This document shows, piece by piece, positions 36,494 to 43,762 of a stretch of DNA of 64,000 bases. Numbering within the stretch: the first letter of the stretch is position 1; every line of letters begins with the position of its first letter. A program made the translations under genes and the position numbers. Source of the DNA: Escherichia coli (GTDB lineage: Bacteria > Pseudomonadota > Gammaproteobacteria > Enterobacterales > Enterobacteriaceae); NCBI RefSeq assembly GCF_003018255.1, contig NZ_CP027440.1; one strand, given 5' to 3'. Under the pieces are notes generated by a model. The model was not told the DNA's origin and did not search any database. It worked only from the letters and a program-made list of their open reading frames with translations.

Positions 36494-38149
36494 TTACTTC
36501 TGTAACCACCAGACAGCCTCAAAAGGCCGTAAAGTCATGGCACAGGGTTGTGGTGAGGCTTCTTCGTAGTTATGCATCACAAGCTGCCAGTTGCCGAGCA
36601 TTTTCCCTGGCTGCCAGGGTTGGGTCTCACGGCTAAGGTTGGCAATGACCAGTAAGGTTTGCCCCTTCCACTCACGGCGATAGCACCACAATACAGGGCT
36701 GTTTGGCAGCAGATCCTGGTAATCGCCCCATGTCAGGACGGCTTCTTGCTTACGCAGTGCGATTAACTTTTGGTAGGTGTAAAACACCGAGGACTCATCG
36801 GCCAGCGCTGCTTCTACGTTGATTTCCTGATAGTTATCGCCCAGGCCAATCCACGGTTCGCCAGCCGTAAACCCGGCATTATCGCCGTTGCTCCATTGCA
36901 TGGGTGTGCGACTGTTGTCACGGGATTTACTGGCGAGGATTGCCAATAACTCGTCGGCATCACGACCATCGTTGCGCAGCTCGGCAAACATATTGAGGCT
37001 CTCCACGTCGCGATAGTCAGTAATGCGCGTGAAATGCGGGTTGGTCATGCCAATCTCTTCGCCCTGGTAGATATACGGCGTTCCCTGCATGCCATGCAGC
37101 ACCATCGCCAGCATTTTTGCCGCAGGCACGCGGTATTCACCTTCATCACCAAAGCGAGAAACAATGCGCGGCTGATCGTGGTTACACCAGAACAAGGCAT
37201 TCCATGCCACGTTGTGCATTCCTTGTTGCCAGTGGCGGAACAATGTTTTCAACGCCACAAAGTCAGGTTTAGCCAGCGTCCATTTTTCACCACTGGGATA
37301 ATCGACTTTCAGGTGATGAAAATTAAAGGTCATCGACAATTCACTGCCTGTCAGTGTCGCATATCGCTGGCAATGCTCAAGGCTGGTGGAGGACATTTCA
37401 CCTACGGTCATTAACCTGCGTGGCGTAAACACATCGCGGTTCATCTCGTGCAAAAACTCGTGTGCTCGTGGCCCGTCGGTGTAGAAGCGACGCCCGTCGC
37501 CATCCAGGTCATCAGGGAAACGCGGGTCTTTGGAGATCAGATTCACCACATCCAGGCGCAACCCGTCGACCCCACGATCGGCCCAGAACTCACAGACTTT
37601 TTTCAGCTCTGCGCGTACCGCTGGATTCTCCCAGTTGAGATCCGCCTGTTCTGGTGCAAAGAGATGCAAATAGTACTGTTCGCTTTCCGCATGCCAGCGC
37701 CACGCACTACCGCCAAATTTTGAACGCCAGTTGTTCGGTGGCGTTTCTGATTCTCCATCGCGCCAGATATAAAACTGGCGGTAAGGGCTTGCTTTGTTCA
37801 GCGCCTCGCGAAACCAGGCATGTTGGGTAGAGGTATGGTTAAACACCATATCGAGAATGATACGAATCCCGCGCGATTTTGCCTGTGTCACCAGTTCGTC
37901 AAAATCGTCCAGCGTGCCGTAGGTGGGATCAATAGCCGTATAGTTCGCTACGTCGTAACCGTTATCAACCTGGGGAGAGACATAAAAGGGGGTTAGCCAG
38001 ATGGCATCAACGCCCAGTTTATGCAGATAGTCCAGGCGCTGGATAACGCCACGTAAATCGCCGGTGCCGCTACCCGTGGTGTCCTGAAAACTCTTTGGAT
38101 AAATCTGGTAGATAACGCCGTTTTGCCACCAGTGGGGAAGATTAGTCAT
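36494..38149 (-). CDS. treC: trehalose-6-phosphate hydrolase
   Basis: ORF 36494..38296; start MTNLPHWWQNGVIYQIYPKSF at 38149 gives 551 aa; GH13 family. Confidence 0.9.
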   Translation of the reverse strand: MTNLPHWWQNGVIYQIYPKSFQDTTGSGTGDLRGVIQRLDYLHKLGVDAIWLTPFYVSPQVDNGYDVANYTAIDPTYGTLDDFDELVTQAKSRGIRIILDMVFNHTSTQHAWFREALNKASPYRQFYIWRDGESETPPNNWRSKFGGSAWRWHAESEQYYLHLFAPEQADLNWENPAVRAELKKVCEFWADRGVDGLRLDVVNLISKDPRFPDDLDGDGRRFYTDGPRAHEFLHEMNRDVFTPRRLMTVGEMSSTSLEHCQRYATLTGSELSMTFNFHHLKVDYPSGEKWTLAKPDFVALKTLFRHWQQGMHNVAWNALFWCNHDQPRIVSRFGDEGEYRVPAAKMLAMVLHGMQGTPYIYQGEEIGMTNPHFTRITDYRDVESLNMFAELRNDGRDADELLAILASKSRDNSRTPMQWSNGDNAGFTAGEPWIGLGDNYQEINVEAALADESSVFYTYQKLIALRKQEAVLTWGDYQDLLPNSPVLWCYRREWKGQTLLVIANLSRETQPWQPGKMLGNWQLVMHNYEEASPQPCAMTLRPFEAVWWLQK

Positions 38150-38198
38150 TACGTTATTCCTGCAAATGCGAGGGGGCGCAATTGCGCCCCGAAGAAAA

Positions 38199-39620
38199 TT
38201 AAACAATGTCCAGCGTGCCCAGGCGGTATTTCCGCTGATAGATAAACGAGGTGAGTACAATCGGGATGATGATGGCGATAGCCATTGCCAGCGCAAACAC
38301 CTGCCAGTAGCTCGGTTGAATCGAGAGAATTCCCGGCAGGCCGCCTACGCCGATGCCATTCGCCATAACGCCGTTCAGGCCGCATAGCAATCCTGCCAGA
38401 CCAGAACCAATCATCGCGCACAGCATCGGGAAGCGATATTTCAGGTTGATGCCGTACATAGCAGGCTCAGTGACTCCAAGCCAGGCGGAGATAGCGGCAG
38501 GCACGGAGATCTCGCGTTCATTGTGCTTGCGGCTGGAAATGATAATGCCTATCACGGCGGAACCCTGAGCGATATTCGACAGCGCAATCAGCGGCCACAC
38601 TGGCGTACCACCCATGCTTTGAATCATCTGCAAATCAATAGCAAGCGTGGTCTGATGTACGCCGGTGATCACCAGCGGGGCGTACAGGAAGCCAAACAAT
38701 GCCGCGCCAATCGGAGCAAAGCTGCCGGTCATCAGGTGACGTACCGCAAAGGCAACGCCATCGCCAATCATGCGACCAAACGGACCAATCAGCGCATGGG
38801 CGAGGAACACCGCGAGGATCAGCGAACAAACGGGCACCACCACCAGATAGAGGTAATCCGGCACGATGCGCTTAAGACGAGTTTCAATAACGCCCAGCGC
38901 CAGCCCGGCTAACAGTGCCGGGATCACCTGCGCCTGATAGCCCACTTTGGCGATGCTGAACATGCCAAAGTCCCACACTTCCGGCAGCTGCTGCCCGAGC
39001 AGATAAGCGTTCATCAGCTGTGGAGAAACCAGCGTTACGCCAAGCACGATACCAAGGATCGGCGTGCCGCCCATTTTTTTCACCGCTGACCAGCAAATCC
39101 CGACCGGCAGGTAGAAGAAGATCGCTTCACCGATCAACCACAGAAAATCGTAGATCGTTTGCAGGGAAGGGTACATTTGCGCCAGCGTTTGACCGTTGCT
39201 CATGGGCAAATCGCCGATCACATTGCGAAAACCGAGGATCAAACCGCCGCTAATCAACGCGGGCAGCAACGGGAAGAAAATCTCCGCGAAATGAGAGATC
39301 AACTGCTCATGCCATTTCATATTCTGCCGGGCGGCTTTTTTTACCTGCTCTTTATCAACCTGCGCCTGTCCGGTTGACGCTATCAGTGCTTGATAGTAAT
39401 CACCCACGTTGGTGCCAATCACCACCTGAAATTGCCCGGCATTGGTGAAACAGCCTTTCACCATGGGGAGTTGCTCAATTTCTTTCGGTCTGGCATTGGC
39501 CGGTTGGTTGAGGACAAAGCGCAGACGAGTAATACAGTGGCTCACCGTCGCAATATTGCCGCGCCCGCCGACCAGTTCAATCAACCGATCGATATCCGTT
39601 TGGTTTATTTTGCTCATCAT
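38199..39620 (-). CDS. treB: PTS trehalose-specific EIIBC component
   Basis: 473-aa ORF with N-terminal EIIB cysteine motif (HCITRLR) and EIIC membrane domain. Confidence 0.9.
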   Translation of the reverse strand: MMSKINQTDIDRLIELVGGRGNIATVSHCITRLRFVLNQPANARPKEIEQLPMVKGCFTNAGQFQVVIGTNVGDYYQALIASTGQAQVDKEQVKKAARQNMKWHEQLISHFAEIFFPLLPALISGGLILGFRNVIGDLPMSNGQTLAQMYPSLQTIYDFLWLIGEAIFFYLPVGICWSAVKKMGGTPILGIVLGVTLVSPQLMNAYLLGQQLPEVWDFGMFSIAKVGYQAQVIPALLAGLALGVIETRLKRIVPDYLYLVVVPVCSLILAVFLAHALIGPFGRMIGDGVAFAVRHLMTGSFAPIGAALFGFLYAPLVITGVHQTTLAIDLQMIQSMGGTPVWPLIALSNIAQGSAVIGIIISSRKHNEREISVPAAISAWLGVTEPAMYGINLKYRFPMLCAMIGSGLAGLLCGLNGVMANGIGVGGLPGILSIQPSYWQVFALAMAIAIIIPIVLTSFIYQRKYRLGTLDIV

Positions 39621-39686
39621 AAAGCCCCATGGCAGATGACATTTTTGGTTGGCTGCAGAATATATTGCGCTGAAAAATTTAAAAAA

Positions 39687-39700
39687 CGGGAACGTTCCCG
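39687..39700. promoter_or_regulatory. TreR operator (perfect 14-bp palindrome) in the treB promoter
   Basis: CGGGAACGTTCCCG, 67-80 bp upstream of the treB start codon; CG-centred LacI-family-type operator. Confidence 0.65.
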
Positions 39701-39739
39701 AAACGCAGCGAAGATCACAATTTATCGTTCAGGAAACGA

Positions 39740-40687
39740 TCAGGACAGGGTGGCGGGAATGATGATTTGTTGCGGTTCGCTGCGCCCGGTTACCTGCGCG
39801 ATCAACTGGCAGGCCGCCTGGCGTCCAGCTTCGGCGTAACCGGGATCTACGGTGACGATCTCCGGATGGAGGAATTTCATTAACGGCGTATTACCGACGC
39901 TCGCCAGTTGCAAGGTGTCGATGCGTTGCTCTTGCAGGTATTTACTTGCGCCAAGTGCCAGCGTGTCGGTTGCGCACAGTAACGCGGTAGTTTCAGGCGT
40001 AATCACTTTTGCTACGTTCTCATAGCCTTGCTTCATAGCAAGCCCTGGCAGAGCGGCAACGGGATGCAATTTATGCGCTTTGCAGAACGCCAGGTAGGCT
40101 TCGTGACGTCGCTTACCGGTCGTCACGTCACTGTGCGGCACGCCGAGATAACTGATATTACGATGTCCCTGGTCATACAGCCGTTGCATCAGGATCTTGA
40201 TTGCCCCTTCGTCGTCATAACAGACCGAAGCAAAGCCTTTTGCGTCACGCGCCAGCAGAACCAGCGATGACTGCCAGTGGGCTAACATTTCTTCTGTTAT
40301 GCCGGTAAAACCGAACAGCACTACGCCGTCGATATTACGCCGTTTCAGCACCCCCAAATGTTCGGCAACTAATTGTGGGGAAAACTGACTTTCCATCATG
40401 ATTGGATCGTAACCTTGTTCATAGAACGCTGGCAGCATGGTTTGAACGGCGAGATTTTCTGACAACGAATCCAGACGGGTAACAATGATGGCGACCACTT
40501 TATCGCTTTGCCCACGCATAGCGCGCGCAGAGCGGGAAGGGGAAAATCCATGCTGATTCATCACTGCTTCAACACGCTCGCGCGTGCGCTGGCTCACGCC
40601 GCTTTCGTTATTCAGCACCCGGGAAACCGTAGATTTCCCCACGCCGCTTAAGCGCGCGATGTCTTTGATGGTCAGCCGATTTTGCAT
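39740..40687 (-). CDS. treR: trehalose operon repressor (LacI family)
   Basis: 315-aa ORF with N-terminal HTH (TIKDIARLSGVGKSTVSRVLNN). Confidence 0.9.
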   Translation of the reverse strand: MQNRLTIKDIARLSGVGKSTVSRVLNNESGVSQRTRERVEAVMNQHGFSPSRSARAMRGQSDKVVAIIVTRLDSLSENLAVQTMLPAFYEQGYDPIMMESQFSPQLVAEHLGVLKRRNIDGVVLFGFTGITEEMLAHWQSSLVLLARDAKGFASVCYDDEGAIKILMQRLYDQGHRNISYLGVPHSDVTTGKRRHEAYLAFCKAHKLHPVAALPGLAMKQGYENVAKVITPETTALLCATDTLALGASKYLQEQRIDTLQLASVGNTPLMKFLHPEIVTVDPGYAEAGRQAACQLIAQVTGRSEPQQIIIPATLS

Positions 40688-40761
40688 CCTGTTGTCCCAT
40701 AACGTGTTGTTTAATTATTTGAGCCTAACTTTACCTGTGCATTCAGCAATGGGTAAAGTCT

Positions 40762-40778
40762 GGTTTATCGTTGGTTTA
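40762..40778 (+). promoter_or_regulatory. PhoP box of the mgtA promoter
   Basis: GGTTTA-tcgtt-GGTTTA direct repeat, with -10-like TATTAT 12 bp downstream (40791-40796). Confidence 0.7.
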
Positions 40779-40871
40779 GTTGCCAGCAGGTATTATATCG
40801 CCATAAATGCTACGAATATTATTGGATTCTCCTTATTATTTGCGGCGCTTTTTTCACTTACCGGAGGTTAT

Positions 40872-40925
40872 ATGGAACCTGATCCCACGCCTCTCCCTCG
40901 ACGGAGATTAAAACTTTTCCGGTAA
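40872..40925 (+). CDS. mgtL: mgtA leader peptide MgtL (17 aa, proline-rich)
   Basis: ATG preceded by ggaggt SD; encodes [17 protein letters not shown] within the mgtA 5' leader; the ORF-track 113-aa frame 40584..40925 is mostly non-coding. Confidence 0.75.
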
Positions 40926-41065
40926 GCCCGTCTTTTCACGGCGTTACCGGATGCGTAAGGCCGTGACGTTTTAACGTCCCTGCTCAGCTTTATTACCTTC
41001 AGGTAAGGCTTCGCCACGCCTGAAGACATTTCTGTACTGTTTCAGACAGTGCGGAGGGACTCCTT

Positions 41066-43762
41066 ATGTTTAAAGAAATTTTTACCCGGTTCATTCGCCA
41101 TTTACCTTCCCGTCTGGTTCATCGCGATCCATTGCCTGGCGCGCAGCAGACAGTGAATACGGCGGTCCCGCCGTCCTTAAGTGCGCATTGCCTGAAAATG
41201 GCGGTGATGCCCGAAGAAGAATTGTGGAAAACGTTCGACACCCATCCGGAAGGATTAAATCAGGCGGAAGTGGAATCTGCCCGCGAACAACATGGTGAAA
41301 ATAAATTACCCGCACAACAACCGTCGCCGTGGTGGGTTCATTTATGGGTCTGCTATCGCAACCCCTTTAATATTTTACTCACCATTCTCGGCGCTATTTC
41401 TTACGCCACGGAAGATTTATTTGCCGCGGGCGTTATCGCGCTAATGGTCGCTATTTCTACGTTGCTGAACTTTATTCAGGAAGCACGTTCCACTAAAGCG
41501 GCAGATGCCCTGAAAGCGATGGTCAGCAATACTGCGACGGTGCTGCGCGTAATTAACGACAAAGGCGAAAATGGCTGGCTGGAGATCCCGATCGACCAAC
41601 TGGTGCCCGGCGATATTATAAAACTGGCGGCAGGGGATATGATCCCGGCAGATTTACGTATCTTGCAGGCGCGGGATCTGTTCGTCGCTCAGGCGTCGTT
41701 AACCGGTGAGTCTCTGCCCGTGGAAAAAGCCGCTACTACTCGCCAGCCGGAGCACAGCAATCCGCTGGAGTGCGACACCCTGTGTTTTATGGGCACCACC
41801 GTGGTGAGCGGTACGGCACAAGCAATGGTGATTGCCACAGGGGCCAATACCTGGTTTGGTCAACTGGCGGGGCGTGTTAGTGAGCAGGAAAGCGAGCCGA
41901 ATGCCTTTCAGCAAGGGATTAGCCGCGTCAGTATGCTGCTGATTCGCTTTATGCTGGTGATGGCTCCGGTGGTGTTGCTTATCAACGGTTACACCAAAGG
42001 CGACTGGTGGGAAGCGGCACTGTTTGCGCTTTCGGTCGCGGTAGGCTTAACGCCAGAAATGTTGCCGATGATTGTTACCTCGACGCTGGCGCGCGGCGCA
42101 GTAAAGCTGTCGAAACAGAAAGTGATCGTCAAACATCTGGATGCCATTCAGAACTTTGGCGCAATGGATATTCTGTGCACTGATAAAACCGGCACCCTGA
42201 CGCAGGACAAAATTGTGCTGGAGAATCATACCGATATCTCCGGTAAAACCAGCGAACGCGTGCTGCATAGCGCGTGGTTGAACAGTCATTACCAGACCGG
42301 ACTTAAAAACCTGCTTGATACCGCGGTGCTCGAAGGTACGGATGAAGAGTCAGCGCGTTCGCTGGCCAGCCGTTGGCAAAAAATTGATGAGATTCCGTTT
42401 GATTTCGAGCGTCGTCGGATGTCGGTGGTAGTGGCAGAAAATACCGAACACCATCAGCTGGTTTGCAAAGGTGCATTGCAGGAAATCCTCAATGTGTGTT
42501 CGCAGGTGCGTCACAATGGCGAGATTGTGCCGCTCGATGACATCATGCTGCGTAAGATTAAGCGGGTTACTGATACGCTGAATCGTCAGGGGCTGCGCGT
42601 GGTTGCGGTGGCGACGAAATACCTGCCAGCGCGTGAAGGAGATTACCAGCGGGCGGATGAATCCGACCTGATCCTCGAAGGATATATTGCTTTCCTTGAT
42701 CCGCCAAAAGAGACAACCGCTCCGGCACTGAAGGCATTAAAAGCGAGTGGAATTACCGTAAAAATCCTTACTGGCGACAGTGAGTTAGTTGCAGCGAAAG
42801 TGTGCCATGAAGTGGGGCTGGATGCGGGAGAGGTGGTCATTGGTAGTGATATTGAAACGCTATCTGACGATGAACTGGCAAATCTCGCACAGCGCACCAC
42901 GCTGTTTGCCCGCCTGACGCCGATGCATAAAGAACGCATTGTGACCTTACTGAAGCGCGAAGGGCATGTGGTTGGCTTTATGGGCGATGGTATTAATGAT
43001 GCGCCCGCCTTACGCGCTGCGGATATCGGCATTTCTGTGGACGGCGCGGTAGATATTGCCCGTGAAGCGGCTGATATCATCCTGCTGGAAAAAAGCCTGA
43101 TGGTGCTGGAAGAGGGGGTTATTGAGGGACGTCGCACTTTCGCCAACATGCTGAAATACATCAAAATGACGGCGAGTTCTAACTTCGGTAATGTGTTCAG
43201 CGTGCTGGTGGCGAGTGCTTTCTTGCCCTTCCTGCCGATGTTGCCGTTACACTTGCTTATTCAGAACTTGCTGTACGATGTGTCACAGGTGGCGATCCCG
43301 TTTGATAACGTCGACGACGAGCAAATTCAAAAGCCGCAGCGTTGGAATCCGGCGGATCTGGGGCGCTTTATGATCTTCTTCGGACCGATCAGCTCGATCT
43401 TCGATATTCTGACGTTTTGCCTGATGTGGTGGGTATTCCATGCCAACACGCCGGAAACGCAAACGCTGTTCCAGTCGGGCTGGTTTGTGGTGGGCTTACT
43501 GTCGCAAACGCTGATTGTGCATATGATCCGTACCCGTCGTGTACCGTTTATTCAGAGCTGTGCATCGTGGCCGTTAATGATCATGACCGTGATCGTGATG
43601 ATTGTCGGGATCGCATTGCCGTTTTCACCGCTGGCCAGTTATCTGCAGCTGCAGGCGCTGCCGTTAAGCTATTTCCCGTGGCTGGTTGCGATTCTGGCAG
43701 GGTATATGACGTTAACCCAGTTGGTGAAAGGGGTCTATAGCCGTCGTTACGGCTGGCAGTAA
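41066..43762 (+). CDS. mgtA: Mg2+-importing P-type ATPase
   Basis: 898-aa ORF with DKTGTLT phosphorylation motif and GDGINDAPAL hinge motif. Confidence 0.95.
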   Translation: MFKEIFTRFIRHLPSRLVHRDPLPGAQQTVNTAVPPSLSAHCLKMAVMPEEELWKTFDTHPEGLNQAEVESAREQHGENKLPAQQPSPWWVHLWVCYRNPFNILLTILGAISYATEDLFAAGVIALMVAISTLLNFIQEARSTKAADALKAMVSNTATVLRVINDKGENGWLEIPIDQLVPGDIIKLAAGDMIPADLRILQARDLFVAQASLTGESLPVEKAATTRQPEHSNPLECDTLCFMGTTVVSGTAQAMVIATGANTWFGQLAGRVSEQESEPNAFQQGISRVSMLLIRFMLVMAPVVLLINGYTKGDWWEAALFALSVAVGLTPEMLPMIVTSTLARGAVKLSKQKVIVKHLDAIQNFGAMDILCTDKTGTLTQDKIVLENHTDISGKTSERVLHSAWLNSHYQTGLKNLLDTAVLEGTDEESARSLASRWQKIDEIPFDFERRRMSVVVAENTEHHQLVCKGALQEILNVCSQVRHNGEIVPLDDIMLRKIKRVTDTLNRQGLRVVAVATKYLPAREGDYQRADESDLILEGYIAFLDPPKETTAPALKALKASGITVKILTGDSELVAAKVCHEVGLDAGEVVIGSDIETLSDDELANLAQRTTLFARLTPMHKERIVTLLKREGHVVGFMGDGINDAPALRAADIGISVDGAVDIAREAADIILLEKSLMVLEEGVIEGRRTFANMLKYIKMTASSNFGNVFSVLVASAFLPFLPMLPLHLLIQNLLYDVSQVAIPFDNVDDEQIQKPQRWNPADLGRFMIFFGPISSIFDILTFCLMWWVFHANTPETQTLFQSGWFVVGLLSQTLIVHMIRTRRVPFIQSCASWPLMIMTVIVMIVGIALPFSPLASYLQLQALPLSYFPWLVAILAGYMTLTQLVKGVYSRRYGWQ

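What the first reader, a model, noticed from the sequence alone, without database searches (positions are those of the whole stretch)
39687..39700. Perfect 14-bp palindrome CGGGAACGTTCCCG in the treB promoter
A CG-centred palindrome typical of LacI-family operators lies upstream of treB and adjacent to treR; it is consistent with the TreR operator.
Basis: partly seen in the sequence, partly recalled or inferred. Interest (0 to 1): 0.15.

Follow-up and report, generated by a model that had tools for sequence, protein, structure and literature searches.

The report
Known TreR operator at treB promoter
The 14-base palindrome is real and is almost certainly the docking site where the trehalose repressor TreR switches off the E. 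coli trehalose uptake genes, a textbook-type arrangement that was already published, so it is ordinary.

Summary
CGGGAACGTTCCCG is at window 39687-39700, in the 119-bp spacer between treR and treB (both on the minus strand). It lies 39 nt after the treR stop, and its centre is 73.5 bp before the treB ATG.

A perfect 14-bp palindrome is not rare in itself: the window has 6, against 4.9 expected. The context is what makes this one significant:
- The 12-bp core GGGAACGTTCCC is invariant in 77 of 77 Enterobacteriaceae treR-treB spacers, while the flanks drift.
- The core recurs upstream of treB, or of the regulator gene, beside TreR orthologues only 38-49% identical (Orbus, Salinivibrio, metagenomic contigs).
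- Its half-site fits the published LacI-family recognition code for TreR's own recognition helix (K-S-TVSR: GG at positions 5/4, G at 6).
- The identical site with its flanks is already listed as a predicted site in Camas et al. 2010.

The site sits between an invariant CRP half-site (TGTGATC, 18 bp away centre to centre) and a weak -35 / conserved -10 (TAnnnT). This implies repression by occluding RNA polymerase and CRP-dependent activation.

A rival reading as the treR terminator is weak. The hairpin is only -7 kcal/mol, there is no covariation, and no Term-seq 3' end maps there.

The direct footprint paper could not be read.

The parts
39687..39700 (.). TreR operator: perfect 14-bp CG-centred palindrome CGGGAACGTTCCCG. 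Its centre is at 39693.5, 73.5 bp upstream of the treB ATG and about -43.5 from the inferred transcription start.
   Evidence: Sequence read. The identical site with its flanks is listed in Camas 2010 Dataset S1.
39688..39699 (.). Invariant 12-bp core GGGAACGTTCCC. Counting outward from the centre, the half-site is C1 A2 A3 G4 G5 G6.
   Evidence: The core is identical in 77 of 77 Enterobacteriaceae spacers. It is also present next to three distant orthologues: L083, L085 and L088. It fits the KS->GG and R20->G6 recognition code.
39701..39722 (-). CRP site AATTGTGATCTTCGCTGCGTTT, directly abutting the operator. The left half is strong (TGTGA at 39719..39715) and the right half is weak. Its centre is at 39711.5, 18 bp from the operator centre and about -61.5 from the inferred start.
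   Evidence: TGTGA lies at a fixed offset of -20 from the core in 77 of 77 species, and TGTGATC is invariant. The same 18-bp spacing occurs in Orbus hercynius. treB is listed as a known CRP target that was also recovered by genomic SELEX (PMC3105977).
39680..39685 (-). Inferred weak -35 hexamer TTTTTA, one base after the operator. It overlaps the T-run, which is T6 here (39681-39686) and T5 in K-12.
   Evidence: This is an inference from a 17-bp spacer to the conserved -10. The T-run (TTTT) after the operator is conserved. The consensus promoter scan found nothing here, as expected for an activator-dependent promoter.
39657..39662 (-). Inferred -10 hexamer TATTCT (pattern TAnnnT). The transcription start is inferred near 39650.
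   Evidence: TAnnnT lies at a fixed offset of 24 nt after the core in 73 of 77 species. These are the only conserved columns in the otherwise variable spacer. No TSS data were available.
39740..40687 (-). treR, the LacI-family trehalose operon repressor (315 aa). Its recognition helix reads G-K-S-T-V-S-R-V and its hinge reads S-A-R-A-M-R.
   Evidence: NCBIfam TIGR02405 equivalog, 590.7 bits against a cutoff of 357. N-terminal translation. PDB 4XXH covers residues 61-315 only.
38199..39620 (-). treB, the PTS trehalose EIIBC component and first gene of the regulated operon.
   Evidence: NCBIfam NF008236 equivalog, 973.8 bits. RefSeq annotation of matching E. coli records.
36494..38149 (-). treC, trehalose-6-phosphate hydrolase and second gene of the operon.
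   Evidence: NCBIfam NF008183 and TIGR02403. Coordinates transferred from K-12 b4239 using an offset of 4426560.

Best explanation
The palindrome is the operator of the LacI-family repressor TreR at the treBC promoter.

Proposed mechanism (inferred):
- A TreR dimer places one helix-turn-helix on each GGGAAC half-site.
- Its hinge helices insert into the central CpG, with Met taking the place of the usual Leu.
- The site is wedged between a CRP site (centre about -61.5) and the weak -35 hexamer.
- Bound TreR therefore occupies roughly -50 to -37.
- In a class I CRP-dependent promoter this is the space used by the RNA polymerase alpha C-terminal domain and sigma region 4.
- Bound TreR should thus block polymerase recruitment and CRP-dependent activation.

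Induction (established knowledge of the system, not tested here): trehalose taken up by TreB becomes trehalose-6-phosphate. This binds TreR and releases it from the DNA, so treBC is expressed when cAMP-CRP is also present.

Shown here: the sequence, its position, its conservation, the recognition-code fit, and the co-occurrence with TreR orthologues.

Inferred: the -10, -35 and TSS positions and the steric mechanism.

Not verifiable here: direct binding.
For: (1) Position: the site is 39 nt after the treR stop, and its centre is 73.5 bp before the treB ATG. This is inside the 30-140 bp range that holds more than 75% of LacI-family sites (PMC4052901).

(2) Phylogenetic footprint:
- The core is invariant in 77 of 77 species, while the variable flanks have a mean majority fraction of 0.55.
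- The other strongly conserved blocks are TGTGATC, the short T-runs on either side of the core, and TAnnnT at fixed spacing.

(3) Distant orthologues (38-49% identity) all keep G-K-S-T-V-S-R, and all carry TGGGAACGTTCCCA-type sites upstream of treB or of the regulator:
- L083, Orbus L085 and L088 have one site each.
- Salinivibrio L086 and L090 have two each.

(4) Recognition code:
- (AA15, AA16) = KS pairs with (NT-5, NT-4) = GG in 44 published sites.
- R20 pairs with G at NT-6.
- A hydrophobic residue at position 54 pairs with the central CG (PMC2978694). The operator has all three.

(5) The exact string cgtttCGGGAACGTTCCCGttttt is listed as a KSTVSR-class binding site downstream of regulator gene 18266 in Camas 2010 Dataset S1.

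(6) There is only one such site in 64 kb, and none upstream of treR.

(7) Direct RNA-seq coverage in K-12 is about 9-fold higher downstream than upstream of the treB start (455 against 50). This is consistent with a promoter in this spacer.

(8) In L046 a 1.8-kb insertion separates treR from the CRP/operator block, and the block stays 78 bp from the treB ATG.
Against: - No direct binding or footprint data could be read. The primary papers are not held.
- The promoter elements and TSS are inferred from conservation only. The consensus promoter scan found no sigma-70 match.
- One paper cites RegulonDB as listing two TreR operator sites at treBC (PMC3505978). Only one convincing site is found here.
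- The best second candidate, GGAAACGATCAG at 39732-39743, has 4 mismatches to the core and is not conserved.
- The palindrome plus T-run also matches a terminator pattern on the treR strand.
Confidence: 0.93

Rival explanations
1. The palindrome is primarily the intrinsic (Rho-independent) terminator of treR: in the treR transcript it forms a hairpin followed by a U-run and stops read-through into treB.
For: - The terminator scan flags CGGGAACGTTCCCG + TTTTTTAAAT on the minus strand, with 5 pairs, 4 of them G-C, and a 4-nt loop.
- It lies 39 nt after the treR stop.
- The T-run after it is conserved.
- No other hairpin plus T-run occurs in the spacer.
Against: - The hairpin is weak, -7.0 kcal/mol, and no better than 19 of 200 shuffles.
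- In 67 of 77 species the outer pair is C.A, which leaves 4 pairs and -5.4 kcal/mol.
- All 12 core positions are invariant, including the ACGT loop that an RNA hairpin would leave free. There is not one compensatory change across 77 species or the distant orthologues.
- The larger fold of the region does not use this hairpin.
- The Term-seq tables for K-12 list no 3' end between 4466176 and 4467576 and none assigned to treR.
- In L046 the treR 3' end lacks the palindrome, which stays with the treB promoter.
- In L090 the sites lie upstream of the regulator.
Confidence: 0.04
2. The palindrome has two roles. It is the TreR operator, and with TreR bound (or as a weak hairpin) it also stops treR read-through as a roadblock, which insulates treBC from the constitutive treR promoter.
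For: - treR and treB have the same orientation and are separated by only 119 bp with no strong terminator.
- Coverage is about 9-fold lower upstream than downstream of the treB start.
- LacI-type repressors are known to act as roadblocks (general knowledge, not tested).
Against: - Nothing tests this directly.
- The low upstream coverage may simply reflect a weak treR promoter.
- No 3' end was mapped at or just upstream of the operator.
Confidence: 0.1
3. It is a chance palindrome with no function, or the site of a different DNA-binding protein.
For: Perfect 14-bp palindromes occur at chance frequency in the window: 6 against 4.9 expected.
Against: - The core is invariant across 77 species, while neighbouring columns vary.
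- It recurs beside TreR orthologues in other orders.
- It fits the code for TreR's helix.
- In the Camas list, sorted by gene id, 18266 is the first KSTVSR entry. If, as I assume, lower ids cover the rest of E. coli K-12, no other E. coli regulator of that class has a listed site.
Confidence: 0.01

Closest known systems
E. coli K-12 TreR operator at treBp (Horlacher & Boos 1997, as curated in RegulonDB/EcoCyc; also predicted in Camas et al. 2010, Dataset S1)
   Same: The 14-mer and the rest of the spacer are the same as in K-12, apart from one extra T and one SNP. The flanks match the published predicted site cgtttCGGGAACGTTCCCGttttt. The neighbours are the same: treR, treB, treC, mgtL/mgtA.
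   Different: The window has a T6 run after the operator, where K-12 and 4948 of 5426 complete genomes have T5. This moves the operator and CRP site 1 bp further from the -10. RegulonDB is reported to list two TreR sites, but a second one was not identified here.
LacI, PurR and CcpA operator complexes (solved LacI-family-DNA structures)
   Same: A dimeric helix-turn-helix regulator on an even palindrome. A hinge-helix hydrophobic residue inserts at the central CpG. R20 contacts G6. Residues 15 and 16 read bases 5 and 4 (PMC2978694).
   Different: No TreR-DNA structure exists: PDB 4XXH is the effector domain only. TreR has Met rather than Leu at the intercalating hinge position. The operator lies upstream of the -35 rather than over the transcription start as in lacO1.
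CebR/CebR2 and CelR boxes of actinobacteria (TGGGAGCGCTCCCA; the CebR2 consensus is TGGGAACGTTCCCA)
   Same: The CebR2 consensus TGGGAACGTTCCCA (PMC9953190) is identical to the TreR family consensus found here. This is a case of the same half-site serving LacI-family regulators of different sugars.
   Different: The regulator, effector (cello-oligosaccharides) and phylum all differ. The CebR2 recognition helix was not examined here, so common descent and convergence cannot be told apart.
CytR- or GalR-type repression at CRP-dependent promoters
   Same: A LacI-family repressor site placed next to a CRP site in a catabolite-controlled sugar promoter.
   Different: There is no evidence here for protein-protein anti-activation as with CytR-CRP. 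The geometry (operator between CRP and -35) suggests simple steric exclusion, which was not tested.

Membership tests
LacI/GalR-family operator | Even-length inverted repeat with a central CG pair | tested here: met
   The site has 7+7 bp perfect arms and a CG centre. This feature is found in 1173 of 1303 LacI-TF motifs (PMC4052901).
LacI/GalR-family operator | Lies in the upstream region of a regulated gene, typically 30-140 bp before the start codon, next to the regulator gene | tested here: met
   The centre is 73.5 bp upstream of the treB ATG and 39 nt after the treR stop.
TreR operator specifically | Half-site bases agree with the recognition helix of TreR (AA15-16 with NT5-4; AA20 with NT6) | tested here: met
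   The TreR helix is K-S-T-V-S-R. KS pairs with GG in 44 sites, and R20 pairs with G6. The site reads G4 G5 G6.
TreR operator specifically | Conserved at orthologous loci and co-occurring with TreR orthologues | tested here: met
   The core is invariant in 77 of 77 Enterobacteriaceae. Five distant orthologue loci (38-49% identity) carry TGGGAACGTTCCCA-type sites.
TreR operator specifically | Bound by purified TreR and released by trehalose-6-phosphate (footprint or EMSA) | not testable with these tools
   The primary papers are not held. I recall that Horlacher & Boos 1997 characterised operator binding, but I could not verify the coordinates.
TreR operator specifically | Second operator site, reported via RegulonDB | tested here: inconclusive
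   PMC3505978 states there are two sites. Only one site has 3 or fewer mismatches. The weak candidate at 39732-39743 has 4 mismatches and is not conserved.
Rho-independent terminator (of treR) | Stable GC-rich hairpin followed by a U-run | tested here: inconclusive
   The pattern is matched. However, the energy is only -7.0 kcal/mol (z = -1.6), and -5.4 kcal/mol in the form carried by 67 of 77 species.
Rho-independent terminator (of treR) | Structure conserved rather than sequence: compensatory changes in the stem and a free loop | tested here: not met
   There are no changes in the stem or loop across 77 species. The outermost pair is broken (C.A) in 67 of 77.
Rho-independent terminator (of treR) | RNA 3' end mapped at the U-run | tested here: not met
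   The Adams 2021 Term-seq tables show no 3' end between K-12 4466176 and 4467576 and no entry for treR. Caveat: treR expression is low.
Class I CRP-dependent sigma-70 promoter | CRP site centred near -61.5 with a weak -35 and a recognisable -10 | tested here: inconclusive
   The TGTGA half-site is invariant at a fixed offset, and TAnnnT lies at a fixed offset in 73 of 77 species. The TSS is not known here, so the -61.5 figure rests on the inferred -10. treB is a known CRP target.

The most novel reading that the evidence does not exclude
The operator may do more than repress treBp. Sitting 39 nt after the treR stop, it could serve as a TreR-dependent roadblock or weak terminator for treR read-through, so that induction both frees treBp and lets treR transcripts run into treBC. 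The natural T5/T6 length polymorphism immediately after it could also retune the phasing of CRP and TreR relative to the -35/-10.
Probability: 0.1. Interest if true: 0.25.

Novelty: already known. Interest (0 to 1): 0.06.

Why it matters
The finding matters little beyond annotation. It confirms that the window carries an intact, canonical treR-treBC regulatory module: repressor gene, single operator, CRP site and promoter. It also gives a clean worked example of how a palindrome that is unremarkable statistically becomes convincing through phylogenetic footprinting and the LacI-family recognition code. The family consensus TGGGAACGTTCCCA and the conserved CRP-operator-(-35) geometry could help annotate treB promoters in unannotated gammaproteobacterial genomes.

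Tried and rejected
(1) Primary literature. Klein et al. 1995 (PMC177135) and Horlacher & Boos 1997 (JBC) are not held. Six full-text searches found no held paper that prints the footprint or TSS coordinates.

(2) Palindrome statistics as evidence. These were rejected, because the window has as many perfect 14-mers as chance predicts.

(3) Consensus promoter scan. It gave no hits in 39400-40000, so the promoter elements were placed by conservation instead.

(4) Terminator reading. It was examined through hairpin energy, the regional fold, covariation and Term-seq tables, and was judged unlikely as the main function.

(5) Second operator.
- A scan for core and half-site matches in 39000-41100 found only a 4-mismatch candidate at 39732-39743.
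- The ATCGTT-N5-AACGAT inverted repeat after the treR stop is odd-centred and not conserved.

(6) Autoregulation. No site was found in the treR upstream region.

(7) L082 was discarded because every C reads as T, so it looks like a bisulfite-converted assembly.

(8) L036 was considered as a natural separation of treR from the operator. It was rejected because a treR 3' remnant still adjoins the operator there. L046 is the cleaner case.

(9) The search for homologous proteins returned only relatives with at least 85% identity in its top 120. Distant orthologues were therefore taken from the representative search.

Full report
**Observation**

The string CGGGAACGTTCCCG occupies window 39687-39700 exactly. 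It is a perfect inverted repeat with 7-bp arms around a central CG. The symmetry does not extend further.

All local genes are on the minus strand:
- treR, 40687..39740
- treB, 39620..38199
- treC, ~38149..36494

mgtA and its Mg2+ riboswitch lie upstream on the plus strand. NCBIfam equivalog models identify the three tre proteins far above their cutoffs.

The window is E. coli. The spacer differs from K-12 MG1655 only by one extra T in the run after the palindrome and one A/C SNP. The palindrome lies 39 nt after the treR stop, and its centre is 73.5 bp before the treB ATG.

**Is it more than chance?**

Not by itself. The window contains 6 perfect 14-bp palindromes against 4.9 +/- 2.2 expected, and 2 CG-centred ones against 1.4. 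Near-matches elsewhere in the window are at chance level. The case therefore rests on context and conservation.

**Conservation in Enterobacteriaceae**

I fetched 80 loci around TreR homologues from species-representative genomes (83-99% protein identity). I extracted 77 treR-treB spacers, counting the window.

- The 12-bp core GGGAACGTTCCC is identical in 77 of 77.
- The outer pair is C...A in 67, C...G in 8, T...A in 1 and C...T in 1. The perfect 14-mer is therefore a minority, E. coli-lineage form.
- In the alignment, the fully or nearly invariant blocks are TGTGATC and TTTC-core-x-TTTT. A TAnnnT also sits 24 nt after the core in 73 of 77.
- The remaining spacer columns have a mean majority fraction of about 0.55.

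This is a classic phylogenetic footprint of a CRP half-site, an operator and a -10 element at rigid spacing.

**Distant orthologues**

A full HMMER scan of cluster representatives gave full-length relatives at 37-52% identity. Their contigs were then retrieved. All keep the recognition helix G-K-S-T-V-S-R.

| Locus | Identity to TreR | Site(s) found |
|---|---|---|
| L083 | 49% | TGGGAACGTTCCCA, followed by TTTACT-N16-TATAAT |
| L085, Orbus hercynius | 47% | CGGGAACGTTCCCA, with a TGTGA half-site at the same 18-bp centre-to-centre distance as in E. coli |
| L086, Salinivibrio | 45% | TGGGAACGATTCCA and TGGGAACGTTACCA, 46 bp apart |
| L088 | 41% | TGGGAACGTTCCCA |
| L090 | 38% | TGGGAACGTTACCA twice, upstream of the regulator |

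The family consensus is TGGGAACGTTCCCA.

**Recognition code**

Camas et al. 2010 (PMC2978694) showed the following for the TVSR subgroup of the LacI family:
- Residues 15 and 16 of the HTH domain specify operator bases 5 and 4.
- R20 goes with G at base 6.
- A hydrophobic hinge residue (position 54) goes with the central CG.

Their Table S1 gives KS -> GG in 44 sites. TreR reads K-S-T-V-S-R, with a Met at the hinge position. The operator half-site, counted from the centre, is C1 A2 A3 G4 G5 G6. All three rules are met.

Their Dataset S1 lists 'cgtttCGGGAACGTTCCCGttttt' as a KSTVSR-class site downstream of regulator gene 18266. That is this very site with its flanks, so it is already in the literature as a prediction. 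I recall that it was also characterised experimentally by Horlacher & Boos (1997), but that paper and Klein et al. (1995) are not held. I could not check the footprint coordinates.

**Promoter geometry and mechanism (inferred)**

- Taking the conserved TAnnnT (window TATTCT, 39662..39657) as the -10 puts the start near 39650.
- A weak -35 (TTTTTA, 39685..39680) then falls one base after the palindrome.
- The operator centre falls at about -43.5.
- The CRP site (39722..39701, centre 39711.5) falls at about -61.5, directly abutting the operator.
- In K-12, with T5, both sites are 1 bp closer.

treB is a known CRP target that was also recovered by genomic SELEX (PMC3105977). A LacI-type dimer on -50..-37 would occupy the DNA used by the polymerase alpha-CTD and sigma region 4 at a class I CRP promoter. 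Repression by steric exclusion is therefore the most likely mechanism. Release by trehalose-6-phosphate is established knowledge of the system (cited in PMC3505978) and was not tested here.

Direct RNA-seq coverage in K-12 is about 9-fold higher downstream than upstream of the treB start. This is consistent with a promoter in this spacer.

**Rival: treR terminator**

The terminator scan flags the palindrome plus T6 on the treR strand. Several observations count against this reading:
- The hairpin is only -7.0 kcal/mol, and -5.4 kcal/mol in the majority C.A form. Neither stands out from shuffles.
- The regional minimum-energy fold does not use the hairpin.
- Every stem and loop base is invariant, with no compensatory change.
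- Term-seq tables for K-12 list no 3' end between 4466176 and 4467576 and none for treR.
- In Enterobacter quasihormaechei (L046) a 1.8-kb insertion separates treR from the CRP/operator block, and the block stays 78 bp from the treB ATG.

A secondary roadblock or terminator role cannot be excluded, but nothing supports it.

**Open point**

PMC3505978 cites RegulonDB as listing two TreR operator sites at treBC. I find only one convincing site. The best second candidate (GGAAACGATCAG, 39732-39743) lies 44 bp away and overlaps the treR stop, but it has 4 mismatches to the core and is not conserved. No site lies upstream of treR.

**Verdict**

- The element is the already known TreR operator of treBp, in its usual place.
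- Interest is low.
- No TreR-DNA structure exists: PDB 4XXH is the effector domain only.

Noticed in passing
window 39681-39686: The T-run immediately after the operator is T6 here, but T5 in K-12. The K-12 70-bp version is identical in 4948 of 5426 complete E. coli genomes. T6 also occurs in O121 strain RM8352. The exact 71-bp window version occurs in no complete genome. The extra T moves the CRP and TreR sites 1 bp away from the -10. It could be a real homopolymer polymorphism or a sequencing artefact.
   Followed up: partly
window 38175-38188: A second perfect 14-bp palindrome, GGCGCAATTGCGCC, lies in the treB-treC spacer as part of GGGGCGCAATTGCGCCCC. It sits just upstream of a very strong Term-seq 3' end in K-12 (4464728 minus = window 38168; read count 425606). 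This suggests a stem-loop that marks a treB 3' end or a processing/stabilising site inside the operon.
   Followed up: partly
window 39616: The K-12 Term-seq data show an RNA 3' end 4 nt into the treB ORF (4466176 minus; read count 47785). It is not Rho-dependent (score 0.86) and has a low intrinsic terminator score of 1.44. It implies a short treB leader RNA of about 35 nt if the inferred start is right.
   Followed up: no
window 39732-39743: A weak operator-like half-site, GGAAACGATCAG (plus strand), overlaps the treR stop codon 44 bp from the main operator centre. It lies inside the inverted repeat ATCGTT-N5-AACGAT. It is not conserved outside Escherichia and Citrobacter. It may or may not be the 'second TreR site' attributed to RegulonDB.
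   Followed up: partly
window 40857-40972: The Mg2+ riboswitch (Rfam RF01056, 125.8 bits) of the mgtA leader lies on the plus strand, upstream of mgtA (41066-43762), as in K-12.
   Followed up: no
L082 3440-3600: This Logan contig from SRR18107613 carries the same locus with every C read as T (e.g. TTTTGGGAATGTTTTTATTTTG). It looks like an assembly of bisulfite-converted reads, so its 'protein' is an artefact in the protein collection.
   Followed up: no
L036 1613-3416; L046 3448-5309: Two Enterobacter species have 1.7-1.8 kb inserted between treR and the CRP/operator block. In L036 a remnant of the treR 3' end still adjoins the operator. In L046 it does not. The content of the insertions was not identified.
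   Followed up: partly
not in window (literature): The TreR family consensus TGGGAACGTTCCCA is identical to the consensus reported for CebR2, a LacI-family cello-oligosaccharide regulator of Streptomyces scabiei (PMC9953190). Reg-Seq recovered TreR by mass spectrometry at the E. coli yedK promoter (PMC7567609). Genomic SELEX reported TreR binding inside sdhCDAB (PMC4797297). These hint at targets beyond treBC.
   Followed up: no
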